Origin: Acidimicrobiia bacterium
Lineage (GTDB): Bacteria > Actinomycetota > Acidimicrobiia > Spongiisociales > ZC4RG35
DNA length: 64,000 bases
Assembly: GCA_036375695.1 (NCBI GenBank)
Contig: DASVBU010000007.1
Span: 5,380 to 69,379, forward strand
Reading direction: 5' to 3'
In this document: positions 21,015 through 63,705 of the stretch, one piece after another
Position numbering within the stretch: position 1 is the stretch's first letter
Layout of the letters: each line of letters begins with the position of its first letter
The notes under the pieces: generated by a model
Database searches by the model: none
What the model saw: the letters and a program-made list of their open reading frames with translations, nothing else
Told to the model about the DNA's origin: nothing
Made by a program: the position numbers and the translations under genes

Positions 21015-21417
21015 TCTCATCCTGGCCCTCCTTCGGATCATCTTCCTGGGGCTGGTCTACCTGTTCGTCTGGCAGATCGCCCGCGCCATCGGCTCCCATC
21101 TCAGCATCTCGGTCCGCCGCCAACGCCGCGAGGGGCGCCGGATCTTGTTCGTCAGGTCGGAGAGCCTCGCCGGGCAGGAGATCGAAGTGACCAATGTGAC
21201 GGTGCTGGGCAGGTCGGAAGAGGCGGACGTTGTCCTCGATGATCCCTACGCTTCCGAATTCCACATGCGCTTGGTGGCGGCGGAGAACGGGATCACACTG
21301 CACGATTTGGGGAGCACCAACGGCACCTATGTCAATGGGCGCCGGGTGACGGCCCCGGTCACGCTGCGCCGTGGCGACACGATCCAGGTGGGCAAGACGG
21401 TCATGGAGGTCAGGTGA
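21007..21417 (+). CDS. fhaB: FHA-domain protein FhaB/FipA
   Basis: 136 aa with an N-terminal TM and an FHA domain 'LGRSEEADVVLDDPYASEFHMRL...STNGTYVNGRRV'. Confidence 0.75.
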   Translation: MPDLILALLRIIFLGLVYLFVWQIARAIGSHLSISVRRQRREGRRILFVRSESLAGQEIEVTNVTVLGRSEEADVVLDDPYASEFHMRLVAAENGITLHDLGSTNGTYVNGRRVTAPVTLRRGDTIQVGKTVMEVR

Positions 21418-22124: not shown

Positions 22125-22125
22125 C

Positions 22126-24872: not shown

Positions 24873-24908
24873 GTTGGGGCGTCACACTTCCTACAATCGC
24901 TTGACCGC

Positions 24909-41272: not shown

Positions 41273-42193
41273 TCAGCGGCTCGTCACGTAGATGTCACCC
41301 ATCCCGGAACGACCGGAACCGAAGTAGAGGACCTTCCCGTTCCTGGAGAGCGAAGGACGCGTGTCGGGGGCCGTGCTGTTCACCAGGGCGCCCAGACTCA
41401 CCGGATCCGACCAGCCGTCACTCGACAGCGTGGACGTGTAGATGTCGGGACCCGTCGCCGCGCCGCCGCGGTTGCTCCAGAAGAACAGTTCCTTGCCGTT
41501 GACCCTCAGGTTCGGCTGGGCCTCCTCGAATTGCGTATTGATCTCCAGGGGTATCCCCGGCCCGTAGGCCCCGCCCGACAGCGGTGACATGTAGATGTCG
41601 TGGTCGGTCGTGGTGTCGCCCGGGAATGCCGGCCGGCCGCTCGAGTACAACAAGACCTTCCCGATCCCTTGCATCACAGCCGGGAACGGGCTGTGCTCCT
41701 CGAACGGGCTGTTGACCACGCAACCCAGGTGGGTGACGCTCGTGGCATGCGAGTTCTCATCCAGTTGGGCGGTGTAGAGATCGGCGTTGGTGGCCGAACC
41801 ACAGTGCCCGGGACGGTTGCTGGCGAAGAAGAACGTCTTCCCGTCCGCCGAGATCGTCGGGCAGAAGTCGTTCGACGTCGAGTTGATCGGCGGCCCGACG
41901 TTCACCGGCTCACTCCACGGTTCGTTGGGGCCGCTCCGGGTGGAGACCCAGATGTCCTGCCCGCCCTGGGACGTCTCATCCTGCCTGGTCGACATGAGGA
42001 AGAACCTCTTGCCATCCGGCGAGATGAAGGGACACCCTTCCGTCGAGTTGTCCAGGTTGAAGCTCGGATGCGCACCCGCCCCGAAGTCCTCGATGCTCAC
42101 CGCCTGGCCCCACGGCCCGGCCGCGCCGGCGACCAGTGCAGCCGATAGGACCAGCAACACCGCAAGGCTGGTGATCGTCGTCTTTCGTCTCAT
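41273..42193 (-). CDS. Secreted TolB-like (PD40/WD40-like) beta-propeller protein
   Basis: About 306 aa from ATG 42193, with the signal peptide 'MRRKTTITSLAVLLVLSAALVAGAAG'. It carries repeated 'P(S/T)IS(A/P)DGK.L(F/Y)F.S.R' PD40-like units. Confidence 0.6.
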   Translation of the reverse strand: MRRKTTITSLAVLLVLSAALVAGAAGPWGQAVSIEDFGAGAHPSFNLDNSTEGCPFISPDGKRFFLMSTRQDETSQGGQDIWVSTRSGPNEPWSEPVNVGPPINSTSNDFCPTISADGKTFFFASNRPGHCGSATNADLYTAQLDENSHATSVTHLGCVVNSPFEEHSPFPAVMQGIGKVLLYSSGRPAFPGDTTTDHDIYMSPLSGGAYGPGIPLEINTQFEEAQPNLRVNGKELFFWSNRGGAATGPDIYTSTLSSDGWSDPVSLGALVNSTAPDTRPSLSRNGKVLYFGSGRSGMGDIYVTSR

Positions 42194-42218
42194 GGGCGTC
42201 TCCCTTCGGCGGGTCCGC

Positions 42219-42632
42219 TCATGGCTTCTCCACCGGTAGTCCCTCTCTCTTCCAAGCCTCGATCCCACCCGAGAGATGACCGAGGTCGCGGTAGCCCAGG
42301 GTCCACAACGTGGACGCAGCCAGGGCCGACCGCTCCCCCGACGAGCAGTAGAGGATGAGGCGGCGACGGTGGTCGAACTCCACCCGATGACGGTGATCCG
42401 CAGGGTCCGCCCAGAACTCGAGCATTCCCCGCGGGGCCCACACCGAGTCAGGGATCCAGCCTGAGACCCTGAGCTCGTCCTCCTCGCGCACGTCGACGAG
42501 AACCGCACCGTCCGACAACTCGCCCCGGACCTCCTGGGGAGACAGGCTCACCAGGTGCCGACTGGCGTCCTCCACCAGTTCGGCTGCCGTTCTGCCGGCT
42601 CTCTCTTCTCCCGTCGACACGGTCCGGACCAT
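42219..42632 (-). CDS. Rhodanese-domain sulfurtransferase
   Basis: 137 aa. The active-site loop is 'LILYCSSGERSALAA', followed by 'GYRDLGHLSGGIEAW'. Confidence 0.8.
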   Translation of the reverse strand: MVRTVSTGEERAGRTAAELVEDASRHLVSLSPQEVRGELSDGAVLVDVREEDELRVSGWIPDSVWAPRGMLEFWADPADHRHRVEFDHRRRLILYCSSGERSALAASTLWTLGYRDLGHLSGGIEAWKREGLPVEKP

Positions 42633-42707
42633 GAATCACGCCGCTGGTACGACTCTGGGAGCCCCCTGGCCACCGCTACCAGCAGATTCCCAGTGGCAGA
42701 TGACACG

Positions 42708-45700
42708 GTGATTCGGGACGCAGGGGTAGAGCCAAGGAGAGTAAGAATCGCCACTGTGAGGTACCGGGCGTTGGGCCCGATCACAGTCGAGGTCGACGGC
42801 CATGCCTCGAGACTCGGCGGTCACCGCCAACGGATCGTTCTGGCGGTACTCCTCAGCCGTGCCAATCAGGTGGTGGCGCAGGACACCCTGATCGACGCCG
42901 TGTGGAGCGGCGAGCCGCCCGAGGCGGCCAGGGCCACCCTGCAGAGCTACATCTACAACCTCCGCCGAGCCACCAAGAGCGACCTCATCCTCCGCCGCGG
43001 CGACGGATATCTGATCGAGGCCGACGCCGGGAGCTTCGACGTGCTCGACTTCACGGCCAAGCTGGAGCAGGGCCGTTCGCTCCTCGCCACCAATCCGGGG
43101 GCGGCCAGGGAGGAGCTCGCAGACGCCCTCGGCCTCTGGTACGGAGCGCCGTACGGCGGGGTGGACCATCTCGAGCTCCACTCCGAGATCCAACGCCTCG
43201 ACGAGATGCGGGTGAACGCAGTCGAGGCGCGGATCCAGGCAGATCTGGCGCTGGGACGGGACGGGGAGCTGGTGGGCGAGCTGGACGCCCTCGTCCGCGA
43301 GTACCCGCTCCGGGAGCGGTTCTGGGGACAGTTGATGCTCGCCCTCTACCGATCCGGGAGGCAGGCCGAGGCACTCCGCACTTTCCAGCAGGCACGCGCC
43401 CGACTGGTCGACGAACTGGGGATCGAGCCCGGGGCCGAACTGCAGGAGCTCGAGGATCGAATCCTGGCTCAGGACCCCTCGCTCCTCCCCGATCGTTCGT
43501 CGAACCCTCACAAGATGGATGCCGGTTCGCTTCGTGGGTACGAATTGCGAGAGGTCCTCGCATCCACCGCTCTGGGTGTGGCCTATCGCGCCTACCAACA
43601 CTCGGTGGGCCGGGAGGTGGTCGTCAAGTCGATCCGGCCCGAGTTCGCCAACGACACGGCATTCGTCGCCCGCTTCGAGAAGGAGGCACAGACGGTCGCA
43701 GCGCTGGGCCACCCGCACATCCTCCCCTTGCACGACTATTGGAGGGACCCGAGTGGTGCCTATCTGGTCGTGCCGTTCATGGCCGGCGGCAGCCTGGCCC
43801 ATTCCCTCCGGGCCCAGCACTGGCACCTGGAGCCGGCGATGCGATTGCTCGACCAGATCGGCGGCGCCCTCGGCCACGCCCATCGCCGGGGAGTGATCCA
43901 CGGGCACCTGACCGCGTCCAGCGTCGTCCTCGACGACGAGGGAAACGCCTATCTGGGGGACTTCGGCATCGGGCTGGCTCCCGACGGCGGTCTTCCGACC
44001 GTGCTCACGGATGTCGAGGCCCTGGGCAGGCTGGCCCTTCACCTGCTCACCGGGGAGCCACCCCGGGGCCAGCCCGACACGACCGGCCTCCCGGCCGGGT
44101 TCGGCGAGGTCGTCGCCCGCGCCGTCGCCGCATCGCCCGGCCGCTATTCCCGGGTGTCCGACTTCCTCCGAGACCTCAGGCGGGCTGCCGGCATGGACGT
44201 GTCCACGGGATCGGATCTGGTCGAGCCACGCGGCGAGCCCATCCGTAACCCGTACAAGGGGCTCCGTGCCTTCACCGAGATGGACGCGGCCGACTTCCAC
44301 GGCCGCGCCGAACTCGTCGGACATCTCCTGCAGACGATCTCCGAGCAGAGGCTGGTCACGATCGTGGGGCCTTCGGGGAGCGGGAAGTCCTCGGTGGTCC
44401 GGGCAGGCGTGGTGCCGTCCTTGCGCGCCGGGGCGTTGGCGGGATCCCAGGACTGGCTGATCACCGACATGTTCCCCGGCTCCTACCCGTTCGAAGAGCT
44501 CGAGGCAGCCCTGCGCCGTGTGTCGGTGCGAGGCGCAGACGACATCATGAGTGAGCTGACCGCACCGACGGGGTTGCTCCGCGTCTGCAAGAGGATCCTC
44601 CCCGAGGACTCGATGCTGCTCCTCATCATCGACCAGTTCGAGGAGCTGTTCTCGCTGGTGCGCTCCGAGGAGGTCAGGCGCACCTTCATCGACAACCTCA
44701 TCGCGGTGGCGGACGACGAGCGGGGTCGGATACGCGTCGTCACCACCATCCGGGCCGACTTCCTCGATCGACCACTCTCCTACGGCGACTTCGCAGCAGC
44801 CATCGCCCCCGGGCTGGTGACAGTCGGGCCACCGGCCCGTGACGGCCTCGCCCAGTCGATCGCCGCCCCGGCACGTGCCGTCGGCCTCGAGCTGGAACCG
44901 GGTCTGGTCACCCAGGTCGTCGCCGACGTGGAGGGCCAACCGGGCGCTCTGCCACTTCTCCAGTACGCGCTCACGGAGACCTTCGCCGCCCGGGAAGGAG
45001 GCACGCTGACCTTCGCCGCCTACGAGTCGACCGGTGGCGTGGCCGGGGCGATCGGGCGACGAGCCGAAGAGCTGTACCAGGACCTGAGCCCTGTCGCCCG
45101 GGAGGTGGCGAGGGAGGTCTTCCTCCGTCTGGTCGCGGTCGACGAAGTCGGAGTGGTGACGCGCAAACGCGCCCGCCAGAACGACCTGACATCGCTGGCC
45201 GTGGATCGGGCGGCCCTGCAGAAGGTGCTCGACGCCTACGCCCGGTTCCGCCTCATCAGCTTCGACCGGGACCCGGTGACCCGAGGTCCGACCGTGGAGG
45301 TCGCCCACGAGGCGCTGCTGACCACGTGGCCGAGGCTGGAGACCTGGATCGACGACGCCCGGGAGACCCTCGTCATGGCCAGACGGGTCGGGGAGTCCGC
45401 CCACGACTGGGTCGCGTCCGACAAGGACCCCAGCTACCTGCTCCGCGGCTCGCGTCTCGACGACATCGAGCGATGGTCCGCCGGCCCGGGCGTGATCCTG
45501 ACCGGCGACGAGGAGGACTTCATCACCGCCAGCGTCATCACCCGCAACGAGGAGATCGCGGCCGGGCGCCGCCGCCGCCGCCGAGCGCTGACGACCCTGT
45601 CCGTGGGGATGGTCCTGGTGAGCCTCTTCGCCATCCTGGCGTTCTTCCAGCGGCAGGCAGCCCGCCGGGAGGCGACCCTCTCCATCAGCAGGGAGCTCGC

Positions 45701-47813
45701 CGGGGCTTCCCGTCAGCTCGCCAATCCGGAGCTGGCCCTCCTGGTGGCCATGGAGGCATTCGACACTTCGATCAGGGACGGTGCGGAGCCGACACAGGAG
45801 GCGGTCAGTGCCCTGGCCCATGCCATGTTCGATTGGCGCCTGATCACACGCTACCCGGCGGCGGGTCGGCTCGGCCCGATGTCGTCCCCGGACGGATCCC
45901 GGGTGGCTGCCCAGTCTGTCGACAACCCCAGGAACGTCGTCGTGTTCGATGCGGGCGGATCCCCGCTGTCCGAGCTCGTCGGTCCGGACCTGGAGGGCAT
46001 CCAGGCCGACTCGACCGCATTCCACCCCGATGGTGAGTTGATCGCGGTCGCATACACCATCGAGGGTGCCCGGACCTATTCGGCAGTCCCGGAAGGTGAA
46101 CCGGACGTGATCTTGTTCCGGGCGTCCACCGGTGCCGAGGTGGCCCGAATCGACCTGGTCCCCATTCCGGACCAGCCGCTCGACAACGGCACGGGCGCTT
46201 TCCCGGTTTCCTTCAGCGCCTCGGGACGGCTTCTGGCACTCTCCGGCGGCACCGAAGTCGCCGTGGTGGACTGGGCCCGAGGCGAGGAGATCACCCGGAT
46301 CCGATTCGCGGGCCCGACGGGCCCTGCGACCTTCCTCGGTGAAGACACGCTCTTCGTCCCCGTGGCCTCACGAGGCTGGACGTGGTACTCGATCAGCGAG
46401 GCCCGGGAAATCGGGGCGGTCGACGTGCCGGGCATGACCGACATCGCCGCGGCCGATCCCGCCGGGCGTCGCCTAGCCCATCGCGTCGGCGAGCGGGTCG
46501 AGGTGTTGGACGCCATGACCAACGAGGTCCTCATCAGCGTGGAGGATCCCGGGATCCTGGCCCTGGCGGTCAGCCCGGACGGCGCGCGTTTCGCCTACTC
46601 CGGATACGACTCCACCATCCACGTCATCGACCTCGAGGGAGGGCGCCCCGAGATCCTTCTCGAGGGCGCCTTGTCGAACGTGATATCGATCACCTTCGTC
46701 GGCCCCGATCGACTCCTCACCAACGGCGAGAACCCGCTCATGTGGGACGTATCCATGGGCTCGGAGGCGTTCGGGTTCGCGTCGCTGTCGAGACCGCAAT
46801 GGGGGTTCCAGGTGTCACCCGACGAACGCTGGCTCGCCTACATGGTCTCCGCGAGCACCGGTCTTCCCATCTTCGACCCGGGCGACGGGGTGCGTCTCAT
46901 CGACCTCGCCTCGCATGACGAGGTCCTGGCCATCGAGGGAGAGCTCCAGAGCGTCCCGATCGGGCTCAGGATGGTGAGCCCCGACTTCACCCTGTTCGGG
47001 TCGCTCCGGGAGGACATGTCGTCCAGCTTGAGGCTCCTGCCCTCCTGGGATCCCGTCGTGGAGTTCGAGCGCTGCCGGGCTGCGCTCGCGTTCTCACCGG
47101 ACAGCACCCGGGTCCTCCTGTCGGGATCACTGTGCCCGGAAGAGCCCGATGGCGCCCCCAACACCGAACTGATCGACCTGGAGACGGGCGAGACGGTGCT
47201 CACCCTGCCCTACTCGTACACCTTCTCAGCCGAGCTGAACCCCGAAGGAACCTTCGAGGCCGGGCGCTATCTCGTCGCCACCGACCAGGACACCGTGGGC
47301 GTCTGGGACACCCACACCGGCGAGCAGTTGGTCGCCCTGGACCCCCCACCCAGCTGGGAGTACGTCCTCGTGGTGAGCTTCGACTCCAGCGGGCGGCGCA
47401 TCGTTGGTGGTACGACTGCAGGGACGGTCTGGGTCCTGGACCTCGCCGCCGTGGTCGAGGGCGCCACGACCGATGAGGCACTGGTGTTCACCAGACAGGC
47501 CCACTCGGGTGCCACCCCAGGCCCGGCCGTGGGCCCCCAGGGGATCGTGGCGTCCCCGGGGTTCGATGGCCTGATCCGGATCTGGGACGTGGATACGGGT
47601 GCCCTTCTCTTCGAGTACGAAGCGGACATGACGACGCCGTATGTCCGGTTCTCCACCGACGGGAGCAGGCTGTTCTATCCCCATGGGCTCAGCATCAGGC
47701 AGATGCCTGTCGACCCCTACGAGCTCCGTGCATTGGCGGGCGAGTTGGTCACTCGGGACTTCCTCCCCGACGAGTGCGAGAGGTACTCCCGCGACCCGTG
47801 CGAACAGGGCTGA
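42708..47813 (+). CDS. Giant multidomain signalling protein: SARP (wHTH + BTAD) - degenerate Ser/Thr kinase - STAND P-loop NTPase - WD40 beta-propeller
   Basis: About 1700 aa. The N-terminus 'YRALGPITVEVDG..RQRIVLAVLL...LIDAVW' is wHTH, and the BTAD carries 'ELHSEIQRLDEMRV...ALYRSGRQAEALRTFQQAR..L..ELGIEP'. The kinase-like region has 'VVVKSI', 'HPHILPL', 'HRRGVIHGHLTASSVVL' (the HRD Asp is replaced) and 'LGDFGIG'. The STAND region has 'PYKGLRAFTEMDAADFHGR' and the Walker A 'GPSGSGKSS'. The C-terminal repeats include 'LIRIWDVDTGALLFEYE'. The start is uncertain: the ATG at 42555 overlaps the rhodanese gene, so GTG 42708 is proposed. Confidence 0.8.
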   Translation: MIRDAGVEPRRVRIATVRYRALGPITVEVDGHASRLGGHRQRIVLAVLLSRANQVVAQDTLIDAVWSGEPPEAARATLQSYIYNLRRATKSDLILRRGDGYLIEADAGSFDVLDFTAKLEQGRSLLATNPGAAREELADALGLWYGAPYGGVDHLELHSEIQRLDEMRVNAVEARIQADLALGRDGELVGELDALVREYPLRERFWGQLMLALYRSGRQAEALRTFQQARARLVDELGIEPGAELQELEDRILAQDPSLLPDRSSNPHKMDAGSLRGYELREVLASTALGVAYRAYQHSVGREVVVKSIRPEFANDTAFVARFEKEAQTVAALGHPHILPLHDYWRDPSGAYLVVPFMAGGSLAHSLRAQHWHLEPAMRLLDQIGGALGHAHRRGVIHGHLTASSVVLDDEGNAYLGDFGIGLAPDGGLPTVLTDVEALGRLALHLLTGEPPRGQPDTTGLPAGFGEVVARAVAASPGRYSRVSDFLRDLRRAAGMDVSTGSDLVEPRGEPIRNPYKGLRAFTEMDAADFHGRAELVGHLLQTISEQRLVTIVGPSGSGKSSVVRAGVVPSLRAGALAGSQDWLITDMFPGSYPFEELEAALRRVSVRGADDIMSELTAPTGLLRVCKRILPEDSMLLLIIDQFEELFSLVRSEEVRRTFIDNLIAVADDERGRIRVVTTIRADFLDRPLSYGDFAAAIAPGLVTVGPPARDGLAQSIAAPARAVGLELEPGLVTQVVADVEGQPGALPLLQYALTETFAAREGGTLTFAAYESTGGVAGAIGRRAEELYQDLSPVAREVAREVFLRLVAVDEVGVVTRKRARQNDLTSLAVDRAALQKVLDAYARFRLISFDRDPVTRGPTVEVAHEALLTTWPRLETWIDDARETLVMARRVGESAHDWVASDKDPSYLLRGSRLDDIERWSAGPGVILTGDEEDFITASVITRNEEIAAGRRRRRRALTTLSVGMVLVSLFAILAFFQRQAARREATLSISRELAGASRQLANPELALLVAMEAFDTSIRDGAEPTQEAVSALAHAMFDWRLITRYPAAGRLGPMSSPDGSRVAAQSVDNPRNVVVFDAGGSPLSELVGPDLEGIQADSTAFHPDGELIAVAYTIEGARTYSAVPEGEPDVILFRASTGAEVARIDLVPIPDQPLDNGTGAFPVSFSASGRLLALSGGTEVAVVDWARGEEITRIRFAGPTGPATFLGEDTLFVPVASRGWTWYSISEAREIGAVDVPGMTDIAAADPAGRRLAHRVGERVEVLDAMTNEVLISVEDPGILALAVSPDGARFAYSGYDSTIHVIDLEGGRPEILLEGALSNVISITFVGPDRLLTNGENPLMWDVSMGSEAFGFASLSRPQWGFQVSPDERWLAYMVSASTGLPIFDPGDGVRLIDLASHDEVLAIEGELQSVPIGLRMVSPDFTLFGSLREDMSSSLRLLPSWDPVVEFERCRAALAFSPDSTRVLLSGSLCPEEPDGAPNTELIDLETGETVLTLPYSYTFSAELNPEGTFEAGRYLVATDQDTVGVWDTHTGEQLVALDPPPSWEYVLVVSFDSSGRRIVGGTTAGTVWVLDLAAVVEGATTDEALVFTRQAHSGATPGPAVGPQGIVASPGFDGLIRIWDVDTGALLFEYEADMTTPYVRFSTDGSRLFYPHGLSIRQMPVDPYELRALAGELVTRDFLPDECERYSRDPCEQG

Positions 47814-50189: not shown

Positions 50190-50534
50190 TCACCGGGCCG
50201 CGACCGCGGCCTCTTCGTCGTCATGGATCGTCATGAAGTCGGCCAGACGGGTGATGGTGAACACCTCGCGGTAGTGGTCCGACAGTCCGAATGCGTGGAT
50301 CTCCCGCTCCTCGGCGCGGGCCCTCGCCAGCAGTCCGACGATGACCGCGATCCCGGTGGAGTTGATGTAGTCCACGCCCCGGAAGTCCAACACCACGCGT
50401 CCCGGCCGGCTGGTCGCCTCGGCGTAGGCCGCCTCGAGGGTCTCCTTGGCGCCACGGTCCACGGTGCCCACGAGGGTCACGACACTTCCGTCGTCGAGTG
50501 GCGCCGTCGTGGCCCGAAACTCGCTGTCCATCAC
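50190..50534 (-). CDS. STAS-domain anti-sigma-factor antagonist
   Basis: 114 aa. 'VTLVGTVDRGAKETL...VVLDFRGVDYINSTGIAVIVGLL...HAFGLSDHYREVFTITRLADFMTIH'. Confidence 0.75.
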   Translation of the reverse strand: MMDSEFRATTAPLDDGSVVTLVGTVDRGAKETLEAAYAEATSRPGRVVLDFRGVDYINSTGIAVIVGLLARARAEEREIHAFGLSDHYREVFTITRLADFMTIHDDEEAAVAAR

Positions 50535-52111
50535 AGCGCTCCCTTCCTCTTCACGATCAGCTCCACCGTGTGGGTGCGACCGTCGCTGGTGGAGCGGACC
50601 TCGTCGACCATCTTCTCGATCAGGAACAGGCCCCAGCCGCGAGGTGTCTGGGTGCCGGCGAGCTTCGCCTCGAGATCCGGGGTCTGCGCCTCGGGTATCT
50701 CCTTCGCCCCGCCCTGGTCGGTGACGCGAATCGTCAGGACCTCGTCCGTGGCCCTGACCTCGACCCCCACCTCGAGTTCGGGGCGGTTCTCGTTGCCGTG
50801 CTCGATGGCGTTCATCACCGTCTCGGCGAGGGCTGTCTTGAGACGCTCGACGTCCCGTTCCTCGAACCCGAGCGGGGCGACCACCTCCGCCAGACGGGCA
50901 ATGGCGACGCGCTCGTTCCCCTCCTCGCTGGCGACCGTGAAGGCGTCCAGCAGCTCACCGCTCTCGAAGGCCAGCGCCGAGTCCTGGGCCGAGCTCGACC
51001 GACGCACCACCACCAGCGTGATGTCGTCTTCCTGCTCCGCGTCGGGACCGGTGAAGGCCTCCAGGTCGCTGACCACCGCCGTGACCATGTCGTCCGACCG
51101 CCGGGCCACGCGGGACATCAGCCTCCCGAAGCCGTACATCTCGCCTCTGGGGTCGTGGGCCTCGGTGATCCCGTCGCTCGTCAGGACCATGATCTCGCCC
51201 GAGCCCATGGTGTAACGCTTCTCCTCGTAGTCCATGCCGGGCATGAGGCCGAGGGGCATCCCTGCGGCGCGGATCTCGACGACGCCGTCGGAGGTCTGCA
51301 TGTAGGGGAGGTTGTGGCCGGCGTTGGCCAACACGACGTCGCCACGCTCCGTGTCGATGATGGCGTACAGACACGTGACGAACATCGCCGCCGGGATCTC
51401 GGGGACCAGGGCGTCGTTGACCTCGGCGAGGACCTGTGAGGGTGACCCGTGCCGCTGCGCCGCGGCCCGCAGCATCGACCGGCAGGTGGCCATGACCAAT
51501 GCCGCGGGCACACCCTTGTCGGTGACGTCGCCGATGACCACGCCGAGCCGGCCGTCGCCCAGGGGGATGAAGTCGTAGAAGTCCCCGCCCACGGCCCGGG
51601 CGGGGCGATAGAAGGCGCTGACGTGCCAACCGGGGATCGCCGGCAGCTCCTTCGGGAGCAGGGTCTGCTGGATCAGGGCGGCGACCTTGAGCTCCTGCTC
51701 GATCCGCTCCCGCTCCTTGGCCTCGGCCTGCTGCTCCCGGATCAGTTGGGCGACCCGCATCGCCGGCGCCACCTGGGCGGCGAGACCACCGAGGAGCCTG
51801 CGGTCGTCGCTCGAGTACGGCTGGTCGGAGAGACGGGGCCCGAGATAGAGGGCGCCGAGGAGCTCTCCCTGGCCGATGAGGGGGACGATGAGCTCGACTC
51901 CCGCGGAGCGGATGGTCTCCAGCGTCGGAGAGACGAGCTCCAGGTCGCCGACGCCCACCGGTCCGCCCGCGGACAAGAGGACAGTCTCGAGGGGGTCGCC
52001 CGACGGGATGGGGATCGGGTCGAGCAGGGTCGTCGGCGTCACGGGCCCCTTGCCTACGGATGTCTGCCCGTTCTCGGCCCGGCGCCGTCGCAATCTCTGA
52101 AGCATCGTCAC
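50531..52111 (-). CDS. GAF - PP2C(SpoIIE) phosphatase - HATPase_c (RsbW-like kinase) fusion protein
   Basis: 526 aa. The N-terminus is GAF-like ('GELLGALYLGPRLSDQPYSSDDRRLLGGLAAQVA'), the middle is a SpoIIE phosphatase ('GGDFYDFIPLGDGRLGVVIGDVTDKG', 'VLTSDGITEA'), and the C-terminus is a GHKL ATPase ('AETVMNAIEHGN', 'TPRGWGLFLIEKMVDEV'). Confidence 0.8.
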   Translation of the reverse strand: MTMLQRLRRRRAENGQTSVGKGPVTPTTLLDPIPIPSGDPLETVLLSAGGPVGVGDLELVSPTLETIRSAGVELIVPLIGQGELLGALYLGPRLSDQPYSSDDRRLLGGLAAQVAPAMRVAQLIREQQAEAKERERIEQELKVAALIQQTLLPKELPAIPGWHVSAFYRPARAVGGDFYDFIPLGDGRLGVVIGDVTDKGVPAALVMATCRSMLRAAAQRHGSPSQVLAEVNDALVPEIPAAMFVTCLYAIIDTERGDVVLANAGHNLPYMQTSDGVVEIRAAGMPLGLMPGMDYEEKRYTMGSGEIMVLTSDGITEAHDPRGEMYGFGRLMSRVARRSDDMVTAVVSDLEAFTGPDAEQEDDITLVVVRRSSSAQDSALAFESGELLDAFTVASEEGNERVAIARLAEVVAPLGFEERDVERLKTALAETVMNAIEHGNENRPELEVGVEVRATDEVLTIRVTDQGGAKEIPEAQTPDLEAKLAGTQTPRGWGLFLIEKMVDEVRSTSDGRTHTVELIVKRKGAL

Positions 52112-53404: not shown

Positions 53405-56113
53405 GTGCTCGACGTCAACCTACTAGGGACTCCGGAGGCCCTGGTCGACGGGAAGCCGATCAGGGTCGACACCACCAAGGCGATCGCCCTCCTGGCCTAC
53501 CTGGTGGTGGAACGCACCGCGCGGAGGGACACCCTGGCCGCGCTCCTCTGGGCGGATTCGTCACAGGAACGTGCCCGGGCGACCCTCCGTCGCACCCTGT
53601 CTGCCCTGCGCACCGCGGCGGGAGCCGACCTGATCGACTCCGATCGCAGCACCGTCACCCTCAGCGACCAGGTCGTGTCCGACTACGGCCAACTGCTCGC
53701 CGAATTGGATGCCACGACCCGGCACGACCACGCGCCAGGTGATGTTTGCCCGCTCTGCATGCCACATCTCGAGAAGGCGTCATCCCTCTATCGGGGCGAC
53801 TTCCTCCAGGGATTCGCCGTCCGGTCCGCCCCCGAGTTCGAGCACTGGTCCCGAAACGTGGCCCAGGCACTCCAGATCCGCATGTCCGGCGTCTTCGAGA
53901 GACTGGCCTCCGGCCTCGCCGCCTCCGGGGACTTCGACGCCGCCTCCGCGACCGTGGTGCGGTGGATCGAACTCGACCCACTCCACGAGCCGGCCTATCG
54001 CCTCCTCATGCTGCTCCGGGCCTGGGCGGGCGACCGGCCCGGCTCCATCGACGCCTACCGGGAGTGCGTCGCCGTGCTCGACCGCGAGTTGGCCGTGCCA
54101 CCACTCGAGGAGACCACGGAGTTGTACGAGGCGATCCTCGACGAGGACCTCCCGCCACCGCCCGGTGCCCGGAGGCGGGTGAGGCAGGCGGACTCCAAGC
54201 AGGCTCCCGTCCCCCCGGGTCTCATCGATCGGCAAGCCGAGTTGCAGAGCCTCCGGGGCGCGCTCGACGCCGCCCGGGAAGGAGGTCAGGTCGTGGCGAT
54301 GACAGGAGCACCATGGATGGGCAAGACCCGGCTCGCAGACGAGCTCATCGCCGCGGCGTCGGACCGCTGGACCGTCCTGGCCGGACGCGGTTACCGGATG
54401 GAGCAGGACCTTCCATACGGCGTGGTGACACAGCTCCTCCGGCCCGCGATCGAACGCATCGAGGAGGCCGGGCTCCCGGCATGGGTGATCGGAGAGCTGG
54501 CCCGCCTGCTGCCCGGTCTCGGTCGGGCCGGCATCGCCGACCCGTACGGCGAGAGCAGGTTGCTCGAGGCCATCCACGCCGCCGTGGGAGCTCTGGCAGC
54601 CGGCCGACCCCTGCTCATCGTGGTCGACGACGCCCATTGGGCGGATTCGTCATCGGCGGCCGTGCTCGCTTTCGTCGCCCGCCGCACGAAGGGGTTGCCC
54701 GTCCTCGTCCTCGTCCTGGCGCGAGAAGGCGAGGCCCCGCCTGCCGAGCTGGCGGACCTCATGTCCACCGCAGACGTGAGGATCTCGCTCCAGCCCCTCA
54801 CGGTGACCCAGCTGCTCCCGTTGGTGGGGAACGACGCGACGGCAGCACGGGACCTCGAGCTCCGCACCGGCGGGATCCCCCTCCTCGCGGCCGAGGCCCT
54901 CGCCTCCGGTGACGGCACATCGACACCCGGTTTGACCCGTTATCTGGAGACGAGGTGGAACGAACTGGGTGACCTGGAGCGACAACTCCTCACCGCCGCG
55001 GCCGTTCTCGGCGGGACCTGTGATCCCGGGTTGCTCCGGGACACCAGTGGGCGCTCTGAGGAAGAGGTCGTGGAGGGGGTGGAGAGGCTGACTGCCTTGG
55101 GGCTCCTCCGCGAGACGGCCGACGGAATCGGCTTCACCCTGGATGCGATGGAGCGGTTGGCATACGAGTCCGCATCCCTGGTTCGGCGCCGTCTGCTCCA
55201 TGGCCGCGCCGGCGATGCGCTGGCAGCCCGGCCCGACGTGCAGCGTGACGTCGCCGCCGCCGCGTCGGTCGCAGCGCAATACCAGGCCGCCGCTCGACCC
55301 GAGGCCGCGACCTGGTACCTCCTCGCCGGGGACCTCGCCCGAGCCGTCTACGCCCACGACATGGCCCGCCACTTCTACGAGTCGGCCCTGGCCCTGGGGA
55401 CGAACCGGGTGGCCGAAGCGAGACTGGCGATCGCGGAGCTCGACATGGCGGCCGGCCGATACGAGGAGGCTCGACGACAGCTCACCCTGGCGGGTCCTTC
55501 GGCCGGTGACCTCTCCGGGGTGATCCTGCATCGACTCGGTGACGTCGAGCGTCTCCTCGGCCGTTTCGACTCCGCCGAGGACCTGTATCGGTCGGCCCTG
55601 GACTCGGGCGCCGCCGAAGTGGCCCTGTTCTCCGACTGGGCGCTCCTCGCCATGCGCACCGGCAGGCAAGCCGTGGCCGTCGAGTTGGCCGAGAGGGCAC
55701 GCGCCTCGGCGGAGGAAGGAGGCAGCGACCTGGAACGCTCCCGGGTGCGCAGCATCCTCGCCGCGGTGACCACCGACCCGGGTACCGCCCTGGCCCATGC
55801 GGAGGCGGCCGCCGAGCTCGCCGGCGAGGACGAGGTCCTGCTCATGGCGGCGCTCAACAGCCAGGCGCTCGTCCTCGCCGAGCGCGGCGACCACGACCGC
55901 GCCGGCACGGTCCTGGAGCAGGCTATTGCCATCGCCCAACGGACCGGCCACCGGCATCGCGAGGCCGCGCTGTGGAGCCATCTCGGCGACATCCATCACC
56001 GTGCCGGCCGGGAGGACGAGGCCCGCCGGGCGCAGACACGGGCCGTGTCGATGTTCGCCGACATCGACGCCGGAGGGTTCGAGCCCGAGCTCTGGCTGCT
56101 CACCCGTTGGTGA
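53405..56113 (+). CDS. AfsR-like SARP-family regulator (wHTH/BTAD + AAA/NB-ARC-like ATPase + TPR-like C-terminus)
   Basis: 902 aa. The N-terminus 'LLGTPEALVDGKPIRV..KAIALLAYLVV...LLWAD' is followed by a BTAD ('LRAWAGDRPGSIDAYRECVAVLDRELAVPP'), the Walker A 'MTGAPWMGKTRLADEL', the Walker B 'LLIVVDDAHWAD', and a helical repeat C-terminus. Confidence 0.8.
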   Translation: MLDVNLLGTPEALVDGKPIRVDTTKAIALLAYLVVERTARRDTLAALLWADSSQERARATLRRTLSALRTAAGADLIDSDRSTVTLSDQVVSDYGQLLAELDATTRHDHAPGDVCPLCMPHLEKASSLYRGDFLQGFAVRSAPEFEHWSRNVAQALQIRMSGVFERLASGLAASGDFDAASATVVRWIELDPLHEPAYRLLMLLRAWAGDRPGSIDAYRECVAVLDRELAVPPLEETTELYEAILDEDLPPPPGARRRVRQADSKQAPVPPGLIDRQAELQSLRGALDAAREGGQVVAMTGAPWMGKTRLADELIAAASDRWTVLAGRGYRMEQDLPYGVVTQLLRPAIERIEEAGLPAWVIGELARLLPGLGRAGIADPYGESRLLEAIHAAVGALAAGRPLLIVVDDAHWADSSSAAVLAFVARRTKGLPVLVLVLAREGEAPPAELADLMSTADVRISLQPLTVTQLLPLVGNDATAARDLELRTGGIPLLAAEALASGDGTSTPGLTRYLETRWNELGDLERQLLTAAAVLGGTCDPGLLRDTSGRSEEEVVEGVERLTALGLLRETADGIGFTLDAMERLAYESASLVRRRLLHGRAGDALAARPDVQRDVAAAASVAAQYQAAARPEAATWYLLAGDLARAVYAHDMARHFYESALALGTNRVAEARLAIAELDMAAGRYEEARRQLTLAGPSAGDLSGVILHRLGDVERLLGRFDSAEDLYRSALDSGAAEVALFSDWALLAMRTGRQAVAVELAERARASAEEGGSDLERSRVRSILAAVTTDPGTALAHAEAAAELAGEDEVLLMAALNSQALVLAERGDHDRAGTVLEQAIAIAQRTGHRHREAALWSHLGDIHHRAGREDEARRAQTRAVSMFADIDAGGFEPELWLLTRW

Positions 56114-61266: not shown

Positions 61267-63705
61267 CTACTGGGCGTCGCCGTTGACATCGTCGACCAGG
61301 GCGGCCGCCGCCAACTCGTTCCCGTCACCGACGTCGATGACCTTGACGCCGGTGGCGTCCCGCCCCTGCCGGCTGATCGACCCCACCGCCGTGCGGATCC
61401 CGACACCCGCCGTGGAGACGAGGAACACCTCGTCCTCGGGGGACACCGCCAGAGCCGACACCAGCGACCGCCGCGCCCGGGTCAGCTTGAAGGCCTTGAC
61501 CCCCATGCCGCCTCGGCCCTGACGGCGGAACTCCTTCATGGCGGTGCGCTTCCCGTACCCGGCCGAAGTGAGGAGGAGCACCTCGTCGCCCTCGACGTTG
61601 GAGACGGCGGAGACGACCTCGTCGCCCTCGCGCAACTTGATTCCCCGGACGCCTTGGGTGCCCCGGCCCATGCTCCGGAGCTCCTTCTCGGCGAACCGGA
61701 TCCCCATGCCGTCCCGGGTGAAGATCAGGATGTCGTTCTCGCCGTTGGTCGTGCGGACCGAGACCAGCTCGTCGTCGTCCGCCAGTCTGATGGCCACGAG
61801 GGTGTTGTTCCGGGAGTCGTACTCCTTGAACTCGGTCTTCTTCGCCTGGCCCTTCTTGGTCACCATCACCAGGTAGCGGCTGGTCTCGTAGTCCCGGGTG
61901 TCGATGACCGCCTGGATGATCTCCTCGGGGCCGAGCGGGAGCACGGCCTGGGCGAGGACGCCCTTGGCCGTCCGCTCCTTGCGCGGGATGGCGTGTGCCT
62001 TGACCCGATGCACCAGCCCCTTGTTGGTGAAGAACAACAGATAGGCGTGCGCCGTGGTGTGGATCAGGTGCCTGATCACCTCATCGCCCGGCACCTCGGC
62101 GGCCTTGACCCCACGACCACCTCGGGACTGCGTCCGGTAGGTGGAGGCGGGCACCGACTTCACGTAGCCGGAGGAGGTGACGGTGACGATGATCTCTTCG
62201 TCGGCGATGAGATCCTCGAGGCTGAGCTCGCCATCGTCGGGGACGATCCGGGTGCGCCGCTCGTCGCCGTACTTCTCCCTGATCTCGGTGAGTTCGTCTC
62301 TGATGATCTGCCAGCGTCGACCGGGGTCGGCGAGGATCGCCTCCAGGTCCTTGATCCGCTCATGGAGCTCGGCCAGTTCGGCGCGCAGCTTGTCGACCTC
62401 GAGGGCGGTGAGCCGCCGCAGTGGCATGTCGAGGATGGCGTTGGCCTGGATCTCGGTCAGTTCGAACCGCTCGATGAGGTTGGCGCGGGCCTCGCTGGTG
62501 TCGGCCGACCCGCGGATGATCGCCACCACTTCGTCGATGTTGTCCACCGCGACGATGAGGCCCTCGAGGATGTGGGCCCGGGCCTTCGCCTGGTCGAGAC
62601 GGAACCGGGTGCGCCGCTCGACCACGTCCATCTGGTGATCGAGGTAGTAGCCGACCATCTCGGCGATGTTCAGGGTGCGGGGCACCCCGTCGACCAGCGC
62701 CACCATGTTGTAGGGGATGCTCTCCTGGAGGGGCGTGTTCTTGTACAGCTGGTTGAGCACCACCTGGGGCACCGCCTCTTTGCGGAGGTAGATGGCGAGG
62801 CGGGTGCCGACCCGATCGGACGACTCGTTCCGGACCTCCGCGATCCCCGTGATCTTCTTGTCCTCGACCAGTTCCTTGATCCGGGAGATGATCCGCTCGA
62901 TCGAAACCTGGTAGGGCAGCTCCGTGGCGACGATGGCGGTCCGGCCCTTCTTCGACTCTTCGATGTCGCACACCGCCCGGACCTTGACCGAGCCGCGACC
63001 GGTGGTCAGCGCCTCCCGGGCGCCGCCGGCGCCGAGGAGATACCCGCCAGTGGGGAAGTCAGGGCCCTTGACGAAGCGGAGAAGTTCCTCGGCCGACGCA
63101 TCGGGGTTGTCGATGACATGGATGCAGGCGTCGATGACCTCGGTGAGGTTGTGGGGCGGGATGCTGGTCGCCATGCCCACGGCGATGCCCTGCGAGCCGT
63201 TGACGATCAGGTTGGGGAAGCGGGAGGGCAGGACCGAGGGCTCCTGCTGCTCCCCGTTGTAGTTGTCGACGAAATCGACGGTGTTCTCGTCGATCCCCTC
63301 CAGCATGTGCATGGCGAGACGGGTGAGCCGGCACTCCGTGTACCGGGCCGCGCCGGGCGGGTCGTCGATGCTCCCGAAGTTCCCCTGCGGGTCGATGAGC
63401 AGGTAGCGCATCGAGAAGTCCTGCCCCATGCGCACCAGAGCGTCGTAGATGGCCTGGTCGCCGTGGGGGTGGTAGTTGCCCATGACGTCGCCGACGACCT
63501 TGGCGCACTTCCGGTGGGGCCCCGTCGGACCCATGTTGGACTCCGACATCGAGTAGATGATCCGCCGCTGCACCGGCTTGAGACCGTCCCTCACGTCCGG
63601 GAGGGCGCGGGAGACGATCACCGACATGGCGTAGTCGATGAACGACGCCTCCATCTCGTCGGTGATCTCGATCTCGGGGAGTTCTGGGCGGGTCTCGCTG
63701 GTCAT
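61267..63705 (-). CDS. gyrA: DNA gyrase subunit A
   Basis: 812 aa. 'AMSVIVSRALPDVRDGLKPVQRRI', the active-site 'YHPHGD', and the C-terminal beta-pinwheel repeats. Confidence 0.95.
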   Translation of the reverse strand: MTSETRPELPEIEITDEMEASFIDYAMSVIVSRALPDVRDGLKPVQRRIIYSMSESNMGPTGPHRKCAKVVGDVMGNYHPHGDQAIYDALVRMGQDFSMRYLLIDPQGNFGSIDDPPGAARYTECRLTRLAMHMLEGIDENTVDFVDNYNGEQQEPSVLPSRFPNLIVNGSQGIAVGMATSIPPHNLTEVIDACIHVIDNPDASAEELLRFVKGPDFPTGGYLLGAGGAREALTTGRGSVKVRAVCDIEESKKGRTAIVATELPYQVSIERIISRIKELVEDKKITGIAEVRNESSDRVGTRLAIYLRKEAVPQVVLNQLYKNTPLQESIPYNMVALVDGVPRTLNIAEMVGYYLDHQMDVVERRTRFRLDQAKARAHILEGLIVAVDNIDEVVAIIRGSADTSEARANLIERFELTEIQANAILDMPLRRLTALEVDKLRAELAELHERIKDLEAILADPGRRWQIIRDELTEIREKYGDERRTRIVPDDGELSLEDLIADEEIIVTVTSSGYVKSVPASTYRTQSRGGRGVKAAEVPGDEVIRHLIHTTAHAYLLFFTNKGLVHRVKAHAIPRKERTAKGVLAQAVLPLGPEEIIQAVIDTRDYETSRYLVMVTKKGQAKKTEFKEYDSRNNTLVAIRLADDDELVSVRTTNGENDILIFTRDGMGIRFAEKELRSMGRGTQGVRGIKLREGDEVVSAVSNVEGDEVLLLTSAGYGKRTAMKEFRRQGRGGMGVKAFKLTRARRSLVSALAVSPEDEVFLVSTAGVGIRTAVGSISRQGRDATGVKVIDVGDGNELAAAALVDDVNGDAQ

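What the first reader, a model, noticed from the sequence alone, without database searches (positions are those of the whole stretch)
43538..44230. The kinase-like domain inside the giant protein lacks the catalytic Asp (HGH instead of HRD)
The catalytic loop reads 'VIHGHLTASSVVL'. The bona fide PknB in this same window has 'VHRDVKPGNILL', and the Gly-rich loop GxGxxG is also missing ('TALGVAYRAY'). This predicts a non-catalytic pseudokinase, serving as a scaffold or sensor, placed between a DNA-binding head and a STAND ATPase.
Basis: seen in the sequence. Interest (0 to 1): 0.55.

Follow-up and report, generated by a model that had tools for sequence, protein, structure and literature searches.

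The report
Dead kinase domain inside giant regulator
A huge membrane-anchored bacterial regulator carries a well-folded protein-kinase domain that has lost its catalytic residues; relatives show this loss happened many times while the domain was kept, so it probably has a non-enzymatic job.

Summary
The domain at window 43539..44189 (aa 329-545 of the 42555..47813 ORF) is a real Hanks-type kinase fold: Pfam Pkinase 60 bits, AF2 pLDDT 88.7, Foldseek TM ~0.75 to Mtb PknA/PknI/PknB. In register with PknB and PknA, HRD reads HGH. The catalytic-loop Lys and Asn are Thr and Ser. The Gly-rich loop is ASTALG, and about 20-24 residues of the activation segment (P+1/APE) are deleted. The beta3 Lys, alphaC Glu and DFG Asp remain.

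The host protein is a SARP (wHTH+BTAD) / pseudokinase / nSTAND1 NTPase / single TM helix / beta-propeller protein from an Acidimicrobiia MAG. Of 120 proteins with this architecture, 58 have a canonical RD kinase, 22 are non-RD (mostly HGD), 3 keep the Asp but lack another catalytic-triad residue, and 37 lack the Asp. Parsimony gives 14-16 state changes. Dead domains evolve only about a third faster than live ones and keep the non-catalytic family motifs, including the equivalent of PknB's dimer-interface residue D76.

The best reading is a non-catalytic module, probably for dimerisation or coupling. The exact HGH triplet is not conserved in the nearest orthologues (HGC, HSH, HGG). No catalogued bacterial pseudokinase family or SARP class that I found covers this architecture. 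Interest is moderate.

The parts
42756..47813 (+). Gene for the giant SARP-pseudokinase-nSTAND1-TM-beta-propeller protein. The likely start is GTG 42756 and the database start is TTG 42771. The longest ORF begins at GTG 42555.
   Evidence: ORF list and translation. The identical database proteins P0118/P0379 start at aa 73. The family consensus begins 'V.YR.LGP'. AAGGAG lies at 42734-42739. A divergent rhodanese ORF (42219..42632, -) overlaps the 42555 start.
42828..43010 (+). OmpR/SARP-type winged-helix DNA-binding domain (aa 92-152)
   Evidence: Pfam Trans_reg_C, E 9.7e-8, 32.4 bits against a cut-off of 26.2
43038..43466 (+). BTAD, the bacterial transcriptional activator domain (aa 162-304)
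   Evidence: Pfam BTAD, E 7.4e-43. NCBIfam AfsR model matches aa 61-314 at 166 bits, below its equivalog cut-off.
43539..44189 (+). Pseudokinase domain with a Hanks-type kinase fold (aa 329-545), set between flexible linkers at aa ~315-320 and ~549-576
   Evidence: Pfam Pkinase, 60 bits. AF2 pLDDT 88.7, pTM 0.86. Foldseek to PknA/PknI/PknB, TM ~0.75, E ~1e-16. Low-pLDDT linkers in the 933-aa model.
43557..43586 (+). Degenerate Gly-rich loop LASTALGVAY (aa 335-344), with one Gly left of GxGxxG
   Evidence: Alignments to PknB and PknA. The family consensus is GxGDFG in RD members.
43626..43628 (+). Retained beta3 (VAIK) Lys K358. The alphaC Glu E377 (43683..43685) is also retained.
43899..43907 (+). 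HGH in place of HRD (aa 449-451). The downstream T453 replaces the catalytic-loop Lys and S456 replaces the Asn.
43959..43967 (+). Retained DFG motif (D469), followed by a shortened activation segment. It runs 18 aa to the alphaF 'TDVEALG', against 37-38 aa in catalytically intact family members, and has no APE-like 'PPEE'.
44250..45431 (+). nSTAND1 STAND NTPase (aa 566-959), with Walker A GPSGSGKSS (44367..44393) and Walker B LLLIIDQFEEL (44616..44648) intact
   Evidence: Pfam nSTAND1, E 6.9e-114. The Walker motifs are conserved in all 120 family members.
45567..45656 (+). Poly-Arg stretch followed by a single predicted transmembrane helix (aa 1005-1034; helix ~1012-1031)
   Evidence: Kyte-Doolittle 19-aa window peaks at 2.31. 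A homologous hydrophobic segment after RRRRRR occurs in 118 of 120 members.
45672..47810 (+). C-terminal WD40-like beta-propeller region, inferred to be extracytoplasmic, ending in a conserved Cys pair (47775..47801)
   Evidence: Sub-threshold Pfam beta-propeller/WD40 hits. A C-terminal Cys pair (6-14 residues between the Cys) occurs in 112 of 120 members. Topology is inferred from the positive-inside rule.
41273..42632 (-). Divergently transcribed neighbours: a rhodanese-like gene (42219..42632) and a secreted PD40 beta-propeller gene (41273..~42200). They are syntenic with orthologues and may be a regulatory target, which is an inference.
   Evidence: Pfam PD40, E 8e-28. The same pair lies upstream of P0120 and P0119 and in L003-L005.

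Best explanation
The domain is a folded but catalytically dead Hanks-type Ser/Thr kinase domain, that is, a pseudokinase. It lies in the cytoplasmic part of a single-pass membrane STAND regulator: SARP DNA-binding head, pseudokinase, nSTAND1 NTPase, TM helix, outside beta-propeller.

It descends from an active RD kinase that sat in the same position. In this family the catalytic machinery decays repeatedly and stepwise:
1. HRD becomes HGD.
2. The Asp is lost.
3. The catalytic-loop Lys and Asn are lost.
4. The activation segment is deleted.
5. The Gly-rich loop and beta3 Lys are lost.
6. The DFG motif is lost.
The window's copy sits at the fourth to fifth step.

The domain itself and its non-catalytic surfaces stay under selection, so it most likely acts as a protein-protein module. 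My preferred mechanism is inferred, not shown. Kinase-domain self-association, like the N-lobe back-to-back dimers of PknB and MviN, would couple NTP-driven oligomerisation of the STAND module to pairing of the SARP heads on DNA. That would turn a signal sensed by the outside propeller into transcription. In relatives with a live kinase, cis or trans phosphorylation would add a second layer, as AfsK does for AfsR in trans. This lineage has dispensed with that layer.
For: Shown:
- Homology and register of the kinase domain.
- A confident kinase fold lacking an ordered activation segment and alphaG, closest to PknA/PknI/PknB.
- Census of 120 proteins with the same architecture: 58 RD, 22 non-RD, 3 with another residue lost, 37 with the Asp lost.
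- An exhaustive search gives a similar mix: 56 RD, 21 non-RD, 18 Asp-lost and 5 other among 100 single-kinase proteins.
- Trees built from the non-kinase domains need 14-16 changes of state. These include single-residue losses nested among canonical sisters: P0178 reads HRN and P0158 reads HRE.
- 33 of 37 Asp-lost members already have Gly at the Arg position.
- The positions conserved in RD members but lost in dead ones are largely the ATP-binding and catalytic ones: G338, V343, A356, K358, R450, D451, K453 and the APE-like PEG, plus A378 and A428.
- Family motifs are kept in dead members: RGYEL, GREV, LEHPH, D.WRDP, GAYLV.P, RGGSL, AHRxGVxH. R353, F374, H386, P387, D394 (equivalent to PknB D76), R397 and H449 are invariant in 92 sequences.
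- The kinase/nSTAND1 distance ratio is 1.01 for live pairs and 1.35 for dead pairs, against about 1.2 for BTAD/nSTAND1.
- Walker A and B are intact in all members.
- The TM helix is conserved in 118 of 120.
- Synteny shows that live-kinase and dead-kinase proteins are orthologues.
- The same kinase subfamily forms tandem kinase/pseudokinase proteins.

From the literature:
- PknB D76 and L33 are dimer-interface positions. PDB entries 3orm and 3ori are the D76A and L33D mutants.
- MviN's pseudokinase forms a back-to-back dimer (PMC12599244).
- AfsK phosphorylates the SARP-NOD protein AfsR (PMC10936776).
Against: - No biochemical test has been done. Some proteins that lack the HRD Asp keep weak activity; HER3 is an example from my own knowledge.
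- K358, E377 and D469 are retained, so nucleotide binding cannot be excluded.
- The AF2 model of aa 73-1005 gives pTM 0.45 with disordered linkers on both sides of the domain. No fixed contact with BTAD or the NTPase is predicted.
- Dimerisation could not be modelled with these tools.
- The PknB R10 equivalent is Gly, with an Arg one residue earlier, so the PknB interface is only partly matched.
- The root state of the family tree is ambiguous in 15 of 40 bootstraps. That the ancestor was active rests mainly on the predominance of HRD in out-group fragments.
Confidence: 0.6

Rival explanations
1. It is a nucleotide-binding switch pseudokinase. The domain still binds ATP or another nucleotide through K358, E377 and D469 without transferring phosphate, and ligand occupancy allosterically tunes the regulator, as in STRADalpha or JAK2 JH2.
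For: The beta3 Lys, alphaC Glu and DFG Asp are retained in the query and in P0120 and P0121. 15 of 37 Asp-lost members keep the Lys and 30 of 37 keep the DFG Asp.
Against: The Gly-rich loop is lost. The adenine-pocket residues are changed: V343 to Ala and A356 to Val. The nearest orthologue, P0119, has Lys to Arg and Glu to Asp. The oldest dead clade has Lys to Leu and DFG to D[TVSL]G yet keeps the domain, so nucleotide binding is not what the family conserves.
Confidence: 0.2
2. It is a phospho-dependent docking platform. The dead domain or its linkers are phosphorylated in trans by a live kinase (PknB, or a live paralogue) and recruit an FHA protein, as PknB, FhaA and the MviN pseudokinase do in M. 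tuberculosis.
For: The window encodes PknB, a PP2C phosphatase and FhaA. The MviN precedent is described in PMC12599244. AfsR is phosphorylated in trans by AfsK.
Against: No conserved Thr-containing motif is evident in the linkers or C-lobe of dead members. The Thr/Ser-rich activation loop of live relatives is deleted. The PknB cluster lies about 16 kb away and is the universal cell-wall cluster, with no specific link to this gene.
Confidence: 0.1
3. It has residual or atypical catalysis. The domain would still transfer phosphate weakly, or perform another reaction (AMPylation as in SelO, glutamylation as in SidJ), using rearranged residues such as H451.
For: There is precedent for 'pseudokinases' with unexpected chemistry (bioRxiv 10.1101/2021.04.13.439722, listed). 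DFG, Lys and Glu are retained.
Against: H451 varies in the closest orthologues (Cys, His, Gly). The position is N, A, S, G, H, R, E, L or C across dead members. The catalytic-loop Lys and Asn, the Gly-rich loop and the whole substrate-binding P+1/APE segment are also gone. No migrated Asp or Lys is conserved nearby.
Confidence: 0.05
4. It is a functionless relic, a decaying spacer between the SARP head and the NTPase.
For: Catalytic residues are lost. Dead domains evolve about a third faster than live ones. Flexible linkers flank the domain.
Against: The domain is retained with a confident fold in all 37 Asp-lost members, including an old clade. It is 58-64% identical to live relatives, on a par with BTAD and more conserved than the propeller in all but the closest relative. 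Seven residues are invariant across 92 sequences. No member of the 120 has deleted it.
Confidence: 0.05

Closest known systems
MviN (Rv3910) intracellular pseudokinase domain / ActPs3 family of actinobacterial pseudokinases
   Same: Both are actinobacterial domains derived from Hanks-type kinases, lack the catalytic Asp and have a hallmark activation-loop deletion. Both are fused to a non-kinase membrane protein and have a non-catalytic regulatory role. The D76-type N-lobe dimer-interface residue is conserved (PMC12599244).
   Different: ActPs3 has lost all three catalytic-triad residues and cannot bind ATP, whereas the query keeps the beta3 Lys and the DFG Asp. The host protein is a lipid II flippase, not a transcription factor/STAND. 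MviN-type structures were not among the top structural or sequence matches.
AfsR / AfsK system of Streptomyces (large SARP = SARP-NB-ARC-TPR, phosphorylated by a Ser/Thr kinase that carries a beta-propeller)
   Same: Both have a SARP head followed by a STAND NTPase and a repeat sensor, with a Hanks kinase acting on the regulator (PMC10936776; PMC10972967). The giant protein looks like the AfsR and AfsK modules joined in one chain. That AfsK carries a C-terminal PQQ-type propeller is from my own knowledge.
   Different: Here the kinase is fused in cis between the SARP head and the NTPase, and is dead. The NTPase is nSTAND1, not NB-ARC. The sensor is a beta-propeller beyond a TM helix, not a cytoplasmic TPR. 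The NCBIfam AfsR model scores 166 bits against a cut-off of 1430. A separate, classic AfsR-like gene lies at 53405..56113.
M. tuberculosis PknA / PknB / PknI kinase domains
   Same: These are the closest solved folds and sequences: TM ~0.75, 25-28% identity. They share the bilobal fold, the Lys-Glu pair and DFG.
   Different: Those domains retain the HRD Asp and are described as kinases. The query lacks the Asp, the catalytic-loop Lys and Asn, the Gly-rich loop, the activation segment and most of alphaG.
Eukaryotic STAND/ROCO-type multidomain proteins and pseudokinase-NLR pairs (LRRK2; ZED1/ZAR1 in plants)
   Same: A nucleotide switch, a (pseudo)kinase and a WD40 or repeat sensor work together. 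ZAR1 is an NLR that uses pseudokinases as adaptors (PMC6634424, listed).
   Different: There is no homology of architecture or order. Those systems give kinase or cell-death outputs, not a DNA-binding head. The resemblance is only an analogy.

Membership tests
Hanks-type (eukaryotic-like) protein kinase fold, Pfam PF00069 | Significant profile match and bilobal kinase fold | tested here: met
   Pkinase scores 60 bits against a cut-off of 31.7, covering profile positions 5-144 of 263. AF2 pLDDT 88.7. Foldseek TM ~0.75 to PknA/PknB.
Catalytically competent Ser/Thr kinase | HRD catalytic Asp plus the catalytic-loop Lys and Asn (HRDxKxxN) | tested here: not met
   The loop reads HGHLTASS: Asp to His, Lys to Thr, Asn to Ser.
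Catalytically competent Ser/Thr kinase | Gly-rich loop GxGxxG | tested here: not met
   The loop is ASTALG, with one Gly.
Catalytically competent Ser/Thr kinase | Beta3 (VAIK) Lys, alphaC Glu and DFG Asp | tested here: met
   K358, E377 and D469 are present.
Catalytically competent Ser/Thr kinase | Activation segment with P+1 loop and APE motif | tested here: not met
   There is a 24-residue gap against PknB. The segment is 18 aa against 37-38 aa in live relatives, and 'PPEE' is absent.
Pseudokinase (sequence definition: lacks at least one of VAIK-Lys, HRD-Asp, DFG-Asp) | At least one catalytic-triad residue is missing from an otherwise recognisable kinase domain | tested here: met
   The HRD Asp is missing. 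The definition is taken from bioRxiv 10.1101/2025.01.12.632604.
Pseudokinase | Absence of phosphotransfer activity | not testable with these tools
   This needs an in vitro kinase assay.
Catalogued bacterial pseudokinase families (ActPs1, ActPs2, ActPs3, GLW, CP1, DYD, DLHK) | Loss of the VAIK-Lys (100% in ActPs1-3, DLHK and GLW; partial in CP1 and DYD) plus the family-specific motifs | tested here: not met
   The query keeps the Lys and the DFG Asp. The published descriptions do not mention BTAD, STAND or WD40 contexts. No family HMMs were available, so membership was judged only from the published motif descriptions.
SARP family regulators | N-terminal OmpR-type wHTH plus BTAD | tested here: met
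   Trans_reg_C and BTAD match. The AfsR and BagI/FevR models match the head only.
Large SARP / AfsR equivalog | SARP + NB-ARC + TPR, and a full-length match to the AfsR model | tested here: not met
   The score is 166 bits against a cut-off of 1430. The NTPase is nSTAND1 and the repeats are beta-propeller.
STAND NTPase, nSTAND1 clade (PF20703) | Full-length profile match with intact Walker A and B | tested here: met
   382 bits covering profile positions 1-378 of 379. GPSGSGKSS and hhhhDQFEEL are conserved in all 120 members.
Known anti-phage STAND defence systems (Avs, bNACHT and others, in PADLOC) | Match of the NTPase or sensor to a defence-system model | tested here: not met
   Only generic kinase models (PD-T4-6, mad6, PglW) hit the kinase domain. 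Nothing hits the NTPase or the propeller.

The most novel reading that the evidence does not exclude
The SARP-kinase-nSTAND1-TM-propeller proteins are a so far undescribed class of one-component transmembrane receptors, found here mostly in Acidimicrobiia. An outside beta-propeller would drive NTP-dependent STAND oligomerisation inside the cell, and the kinase fold would be the obligatory dimerising relay to a DNA-binding head. If so, phosphotransfer is an optional add-on that has been discarded a dozen or more times. That would make the family a natural experiment on how kinases become pseudokinases.
Probability: 0.3. Interest if true: 0.7.

Novelty: new variant of a known kind. Interest (0 to 1): 0.5.

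Why it matters
Bacterial pseudokinases are barely studied. Only seven families are catalogued, and essentially one domain, MviN, has a known role. This family offers dozens of orthologous live/dead pairs in an identical domain context, with an ordered path of decay. That makes it a tractable system for asking what a kinase fold does when it stops being an enzyme.

It also joins three signalling themes in a single chain: SARP transcription factors, STAND switches and Hanks kinases. In the literature I searched, the SARP-NTPase regulator and its kinase are described as separate partners (AfsR/AfsK). The family also extends the known SARP architectures beyond small, medium, large and SARP-LAL.

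Tried and rejected
Rejected: three independent alignments (the window's PknB, PDB PknA and the Pfam profile) agree.
- **Sequencing or assembly error.** Rejected: the identical protein occurs in three assemblies.
- **HGH as a conserved alternative motif.** Rejected: the orthologues read HGC, HSH and HGG.
- **Defence-system membership.** PADLOC hits only generic kinase models.
- **A partner live kinase or paralogue nearby.** The window holds only PknB and this domain.
- **SARP-box-like repeats** in the 42633..42755 intergenic region. Only short repeats of chance level were found.
- **Fixed packing of the pseudokinase** against BTAD or the NTPase. The AF2 multi-domain model has pTM 0.45, so it is uninformative.
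- **First homologue search with the domain alone.** It returned only proteins of 456 aa or fewer, mostly fragments, so the architecture census needed the full-length query.
- **GTDB genome scan.** It did not contain the window's own species; the best match was 56% identical.
- **First attempt at the large alignment.** It exceeded the size limit.
Full report
**1. Observation**

The longest ORF over the finding runs from 42555 to 47813 on the + strand (1752 codons).
- Its translation contains 'HRRGVIHGHLTASSVVLDDEGNAYLGDFGIG'. HGH is aa 449-451, nt 43899..43907, codons cac ggg cac.
- The gene at 24909..26861 is a real PknB, with a kinase domain, a TM helix and PASTA repeats. It reads 'LVHRDVKPGNILL'.
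- BLASTP of the giant protein's aa 316-570 against that PknB gives 28% identity and E 1e-23. It places H-G-H on H-R-D, T453 on the catalytic-loop Lys and S456 on the Asn.
- phmmer against the PDB gives the same register against M. tuberculosis PknA (E 7.5e-22).
- Pfam Pkinase matches aa 333-472 at 60 bits, against a cut-off of 31.7.
- The Gly-rich loop is LASTALGVAY, whereas relatives have IGxGDFGVVY.

- The beta3 Lys (K358), the alphaC Glu (E377) and the DFG Asp (D469) are all still present.
- The activation segment with its P+1/APE part is deleted. There is a 24-residue gap against PknB, and the segment is 18 aa against 37-38 aa in catalytically intact relatives.

The identical protein is NCBI HEX6945965.1, from an Acidimicrobiia MAG. 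Together with two Logan assemblies it carries HGH unchanged, so this is not an error.

**2. What the protein is**

The Pfam hits are as follows.

| Domain | Residues | Score |
|---|---|---|
| Trans_reg_C | 92-152 | 32.4 bits |
| BTAD | 162-304 | E 7e-43 |
| Pkinase | 333-472 | 60 bits |
| nSTAND1 | 566-959 | 382 bits, full length |
| WD40-like beta-propeller | to the C-terminus | weak, below Pfam cut-offs |

- After the NTPase comes RRRRRR followed by a 20-residue hydrophobic helix (aa 1012-1031). The same feature sits at the same aligned position in 118 of 120 relatives.
- By the positive-inside rule, the SARP head, the pseudokinase and the NTPase are cytoplasmic and the propeller is outside. 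A C-terminal Cys pair in 112 of 120 members fits an extracytoplasmic location. Topology is an inference.
- The true start is probably GTG 42756 or TTG 42771, not 42555. The family consensus begins 'V.YR.LGP', and a divergent rhodanese ORF (42219..42632) overlaps the upstream part.
- That rhodanese and a secreted PD40 propeller gene (41273..~42200; Pfam E 8e-28) lie divergently upstream. They occupy the same position next to orthologues with both dead and live kinase domains.
- The downstream gene is convergent, so the giant gene appears to stand alone.

**3. Fold**

- AF2 on aa 313-569 with 72 homologues gives pLDDT 88.7 and pTM 0.86. The model has a normal N-lobe, alphaC to alphaF, alphaH and alphaI. 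It has no ordered activation segment and no alphaG.
- Foldseek against the PDB puts PknA, PknI and PknB first, at TM ~0.75 and E ~1e-16.
- A 933-residue model of the whole cytoplasmic part has well-folded domains (pLDDT 86.3) but pTM 0.45. Its low-confidence linkers lie at aa ~315-320 and ~549-576.
- So the domain is a discrete module on flexible tethers, and no fixed packing can be claimed.

**4. Family picture**

A full-length search returned 120 proteins with the same architecture, mostly from Acidimicrobiia MAGs.

| Kinase state | Count |
|---|---|
| Canonical RD kinase (HRD.K..N, GxGxxG, VAIK, DFG, 'PPEE') | 58 |
| Non-RD, otherwise intact (mostly HGD) | 22 |
| Asp kept, another catalytic-triad residue lost | 3 |
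| Catalytic Asp lost | 37 |

- An independent exhaustive HMMER search of 1.84 billion cluster representatives finds 1529 relatives of this kinase subfamily at E <= 1e-30. Among 100 single-kinase proteins in the best 150, the mix is similar: 56 RD, 21 non-RD, 18 Asp-lost and 5 other.
- NJ trees built only from the non-kinase domains need 14-16 changes of state by Fitch parsimony, across 40 bootstraps.
- Some losses are unambiguous single substitutions nested among canonical sisters: P0178 reads HRN and P0158 reads HRE.
- One old clade is fully degenerate: Lys to Leu, DFG to D[TVSL]G, and an activation segment of 16-21 aa.
- The window's clade is the query (HGH), P0119 (HGC, 66% identical), P0120 (HSH) and P0121 (HGG). 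Only the query and P0119 share the activation-segment deletion and the Gly-loop loss. HGH as such is therefore not conserved.
- 33 of 37 Asp-lost members already have Gly at the Arg position. This suggests an order: first the RD Arg is lost (freedom from activation-loop phosphorylation), then the Asp, then the rest. The order is an inference.

**5. Is the dead domain still under selection?**

Yes, on four counts.
- The query's pseudokinase domain is 58-64% identical to those of relatives, including live ones. That compares with 64-75% for BTAD, 71-76% for nSTAND1 and 47-64% for the propeller.
- The kinase/nSTAND1 distance ratio is 1.01 in live-live pairs and 1.35 in dead-dead pairs. BTAD/nSTAND1 is about 1.2 throughout.
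- The columns conserved in live members but lost in dead ones are largely the ATP-binding and catalytic positions: G338, V343, A356, K358, R450, D451, K453 and the APE-like PEG. A378 and A428 are also on that list.
- The family's own motifs persist: RGYEL, GREV, LEHPH, D.WRDP, GAYLV.P, RGGSL, AHRxGVxH and RNPYKGLRAF. R353, F374, H386, P387, D394, R397 and H449 are invariant in 92 sequences.

D394 aligns with PknB D76 and V351 with PknB L33. These are the N-lobe back-to-back dimer positions, for which the PDB holds D76A and L33D mutants (3orm and 3ori). The MviN pseudokinase also conserves them (PMC12599244). The NTPase Walker A and B motifs are intact in every member.

**6. Mechanism**

Shown: the domain is a folded kinase domain without catalytic residues. 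It derives from a live kinase in the same position, and it is retained under constraint on non-catalytic positions.

Inferred: it works as a protein-protein module. My preferred version is self-association of the kinase fold, which would pass STAND oligomerisation on to pairing of SARP heads on DNA. The same subfamily forms tandem kinase/pseudokinase proteins, which hints at kinase-kinase contacts. In live relatives, phosphorylation would add a layer like AfsK acting on AfsR, which targets the NOD Walker A Thr and raises ATPase activity (PMC10936776).

The rivals, set out in the report sections, are:
- a nucleotide-binding switch (Lys, Glu and DFG are retained, but the Gly-loop and pocket residues are changed and are not conserved in P0119);
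- a PknB/FHA docking platform like MviN (no conserved phospho-motif was found);
- atypical catalysis (H451 is not conserved);
- a functionless relic (contradicted by the conservation).

**7. Comparison with what is known**

- The bacterial STK atlas and its review list seven pseudokinase families: ActPs1-3, GLW, CP1, DYD and DLHK. All of them lose the beta3 Lys at least partly. Their main texts do not mention BTAD, WD40 or NTPase contexts, and the review does not mention STAND either.
- The SARP review recognises small, medium and large (SARP-NB-ARC-TPR) SARPs and SARP-LAL. None has a kinase or a propeller.
- The papers that name nSTAND1 treat it in conflict systems with CLec or EAD domains. 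A separate paper on NTP-dependent conflict systems was also checked. None of them describes this architecture.
- PADLOC finds no defence-system model beyond generic kinase hits.
- Database annotators have already called the domains piecemeal, for example 'serine/threonine protein kinase/DNA-binding SARP family transcriptional activator/WD40 repeat protein' and 'BTAD domain-containing putative transcriptional regulator'. The architecture is therefore visible in databases, but I found no description of it or of its pseudokinase members.

I file the domain as a new variant of a known kind, namely actinobacterial Hanks-derived pseudokinases.

**8. Verdict**

Interest is moderate (0.5). A single dead kinase domain is not surprising. 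The repeated, ordered decay within a conserved SARP-kinase-STAND-TM-propeller receptor is a useful and apparently undescribed system.

Noticed in passing
window 53405..56113 (+): A classic AfsR-like 'large SARP' (BTAD + AAA_16 + TPR, 902 aa) lies 5.6 kb downstream of the giant gene. The locus therefore holds two different SARP-NTPase regulators.
   Followed up: partly
window 50531..52111 (-): A fusion of a SpoIIE-type PP2C phosphatase with an HATPase_c_2 (RsbW-like anti-sigma kinase) domain, 525 aa.
   Followed up: no
window 20355..26861 (+) and 61267..63705 (-): The conserved actinobacterial cell-wall signalling cluster: FhaA, PP2C (PstP-like), RodA/FtsW and PknB with PASTA repeats. gyrA lies at the far end of the window, so this looks like the origin-proximal region.
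   Followed up: partly
window 41273..42632 (-); L001 3970-5328; L002 4297-5647: A divergent rhodanese plus secreted PD40 beta-propeller gene pair is syntenic with orthologues of the giant gene, whether their kinase is live or dead. It is a candidate regulatory target. The 411-aa ORF 41273..42508 reads through both genes in the wrong frame at its 5' end.
   Followed up: partly
proteins P0238, P0239, P0253, P0300, P0319 and others (no window coordinates): The same kinase subfamily occurs as tandem arrays of two to four kinase domains in one protein, typically mixing dead (HGN, HGS, HMN) and live (HRD, HCD) copies.
   Followed up: partly
proteins P0007, P0014, P0026, P0043, P0060 (LuxR/GerE); P0011, P0023 (HTH_3): The kinase-nSTAND1 module is also found behind other DNA-binding heads (LuxR/GerE, HTH_3/HTH_31). 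Some long relatives add an adenylate-cyclase domain (PF00211). The head therefore appears to be exchangeable.
   Followed up: no
L009 4682-5245 and 10435-10980: One MAG contig carries two family members about 5.7 kb apart, and both have a dead (HGR) kinase domain.
   Followed up: no
window 47775..47801; L001 10653-11327: A Cys pair at the extreme C-terminus is conserved (6-14 residues between the Cys; 112 of 120 members), and a DsbA gene lies next to the P0120 orthologue. Both fit an extracytoplasmic, disulfide-bonded propeller.
   Followed up: partly
family-wide, aa ~495-520 of the giant protein: Even the catalytically intact family members have a short alphaF-alphaH connection (about 20 aa, against about 35 aa in PknB). 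They therefore have a reduced or missing alphaG, which recalls the G-helix deletion described for ActPs1.
   Followed up: partly
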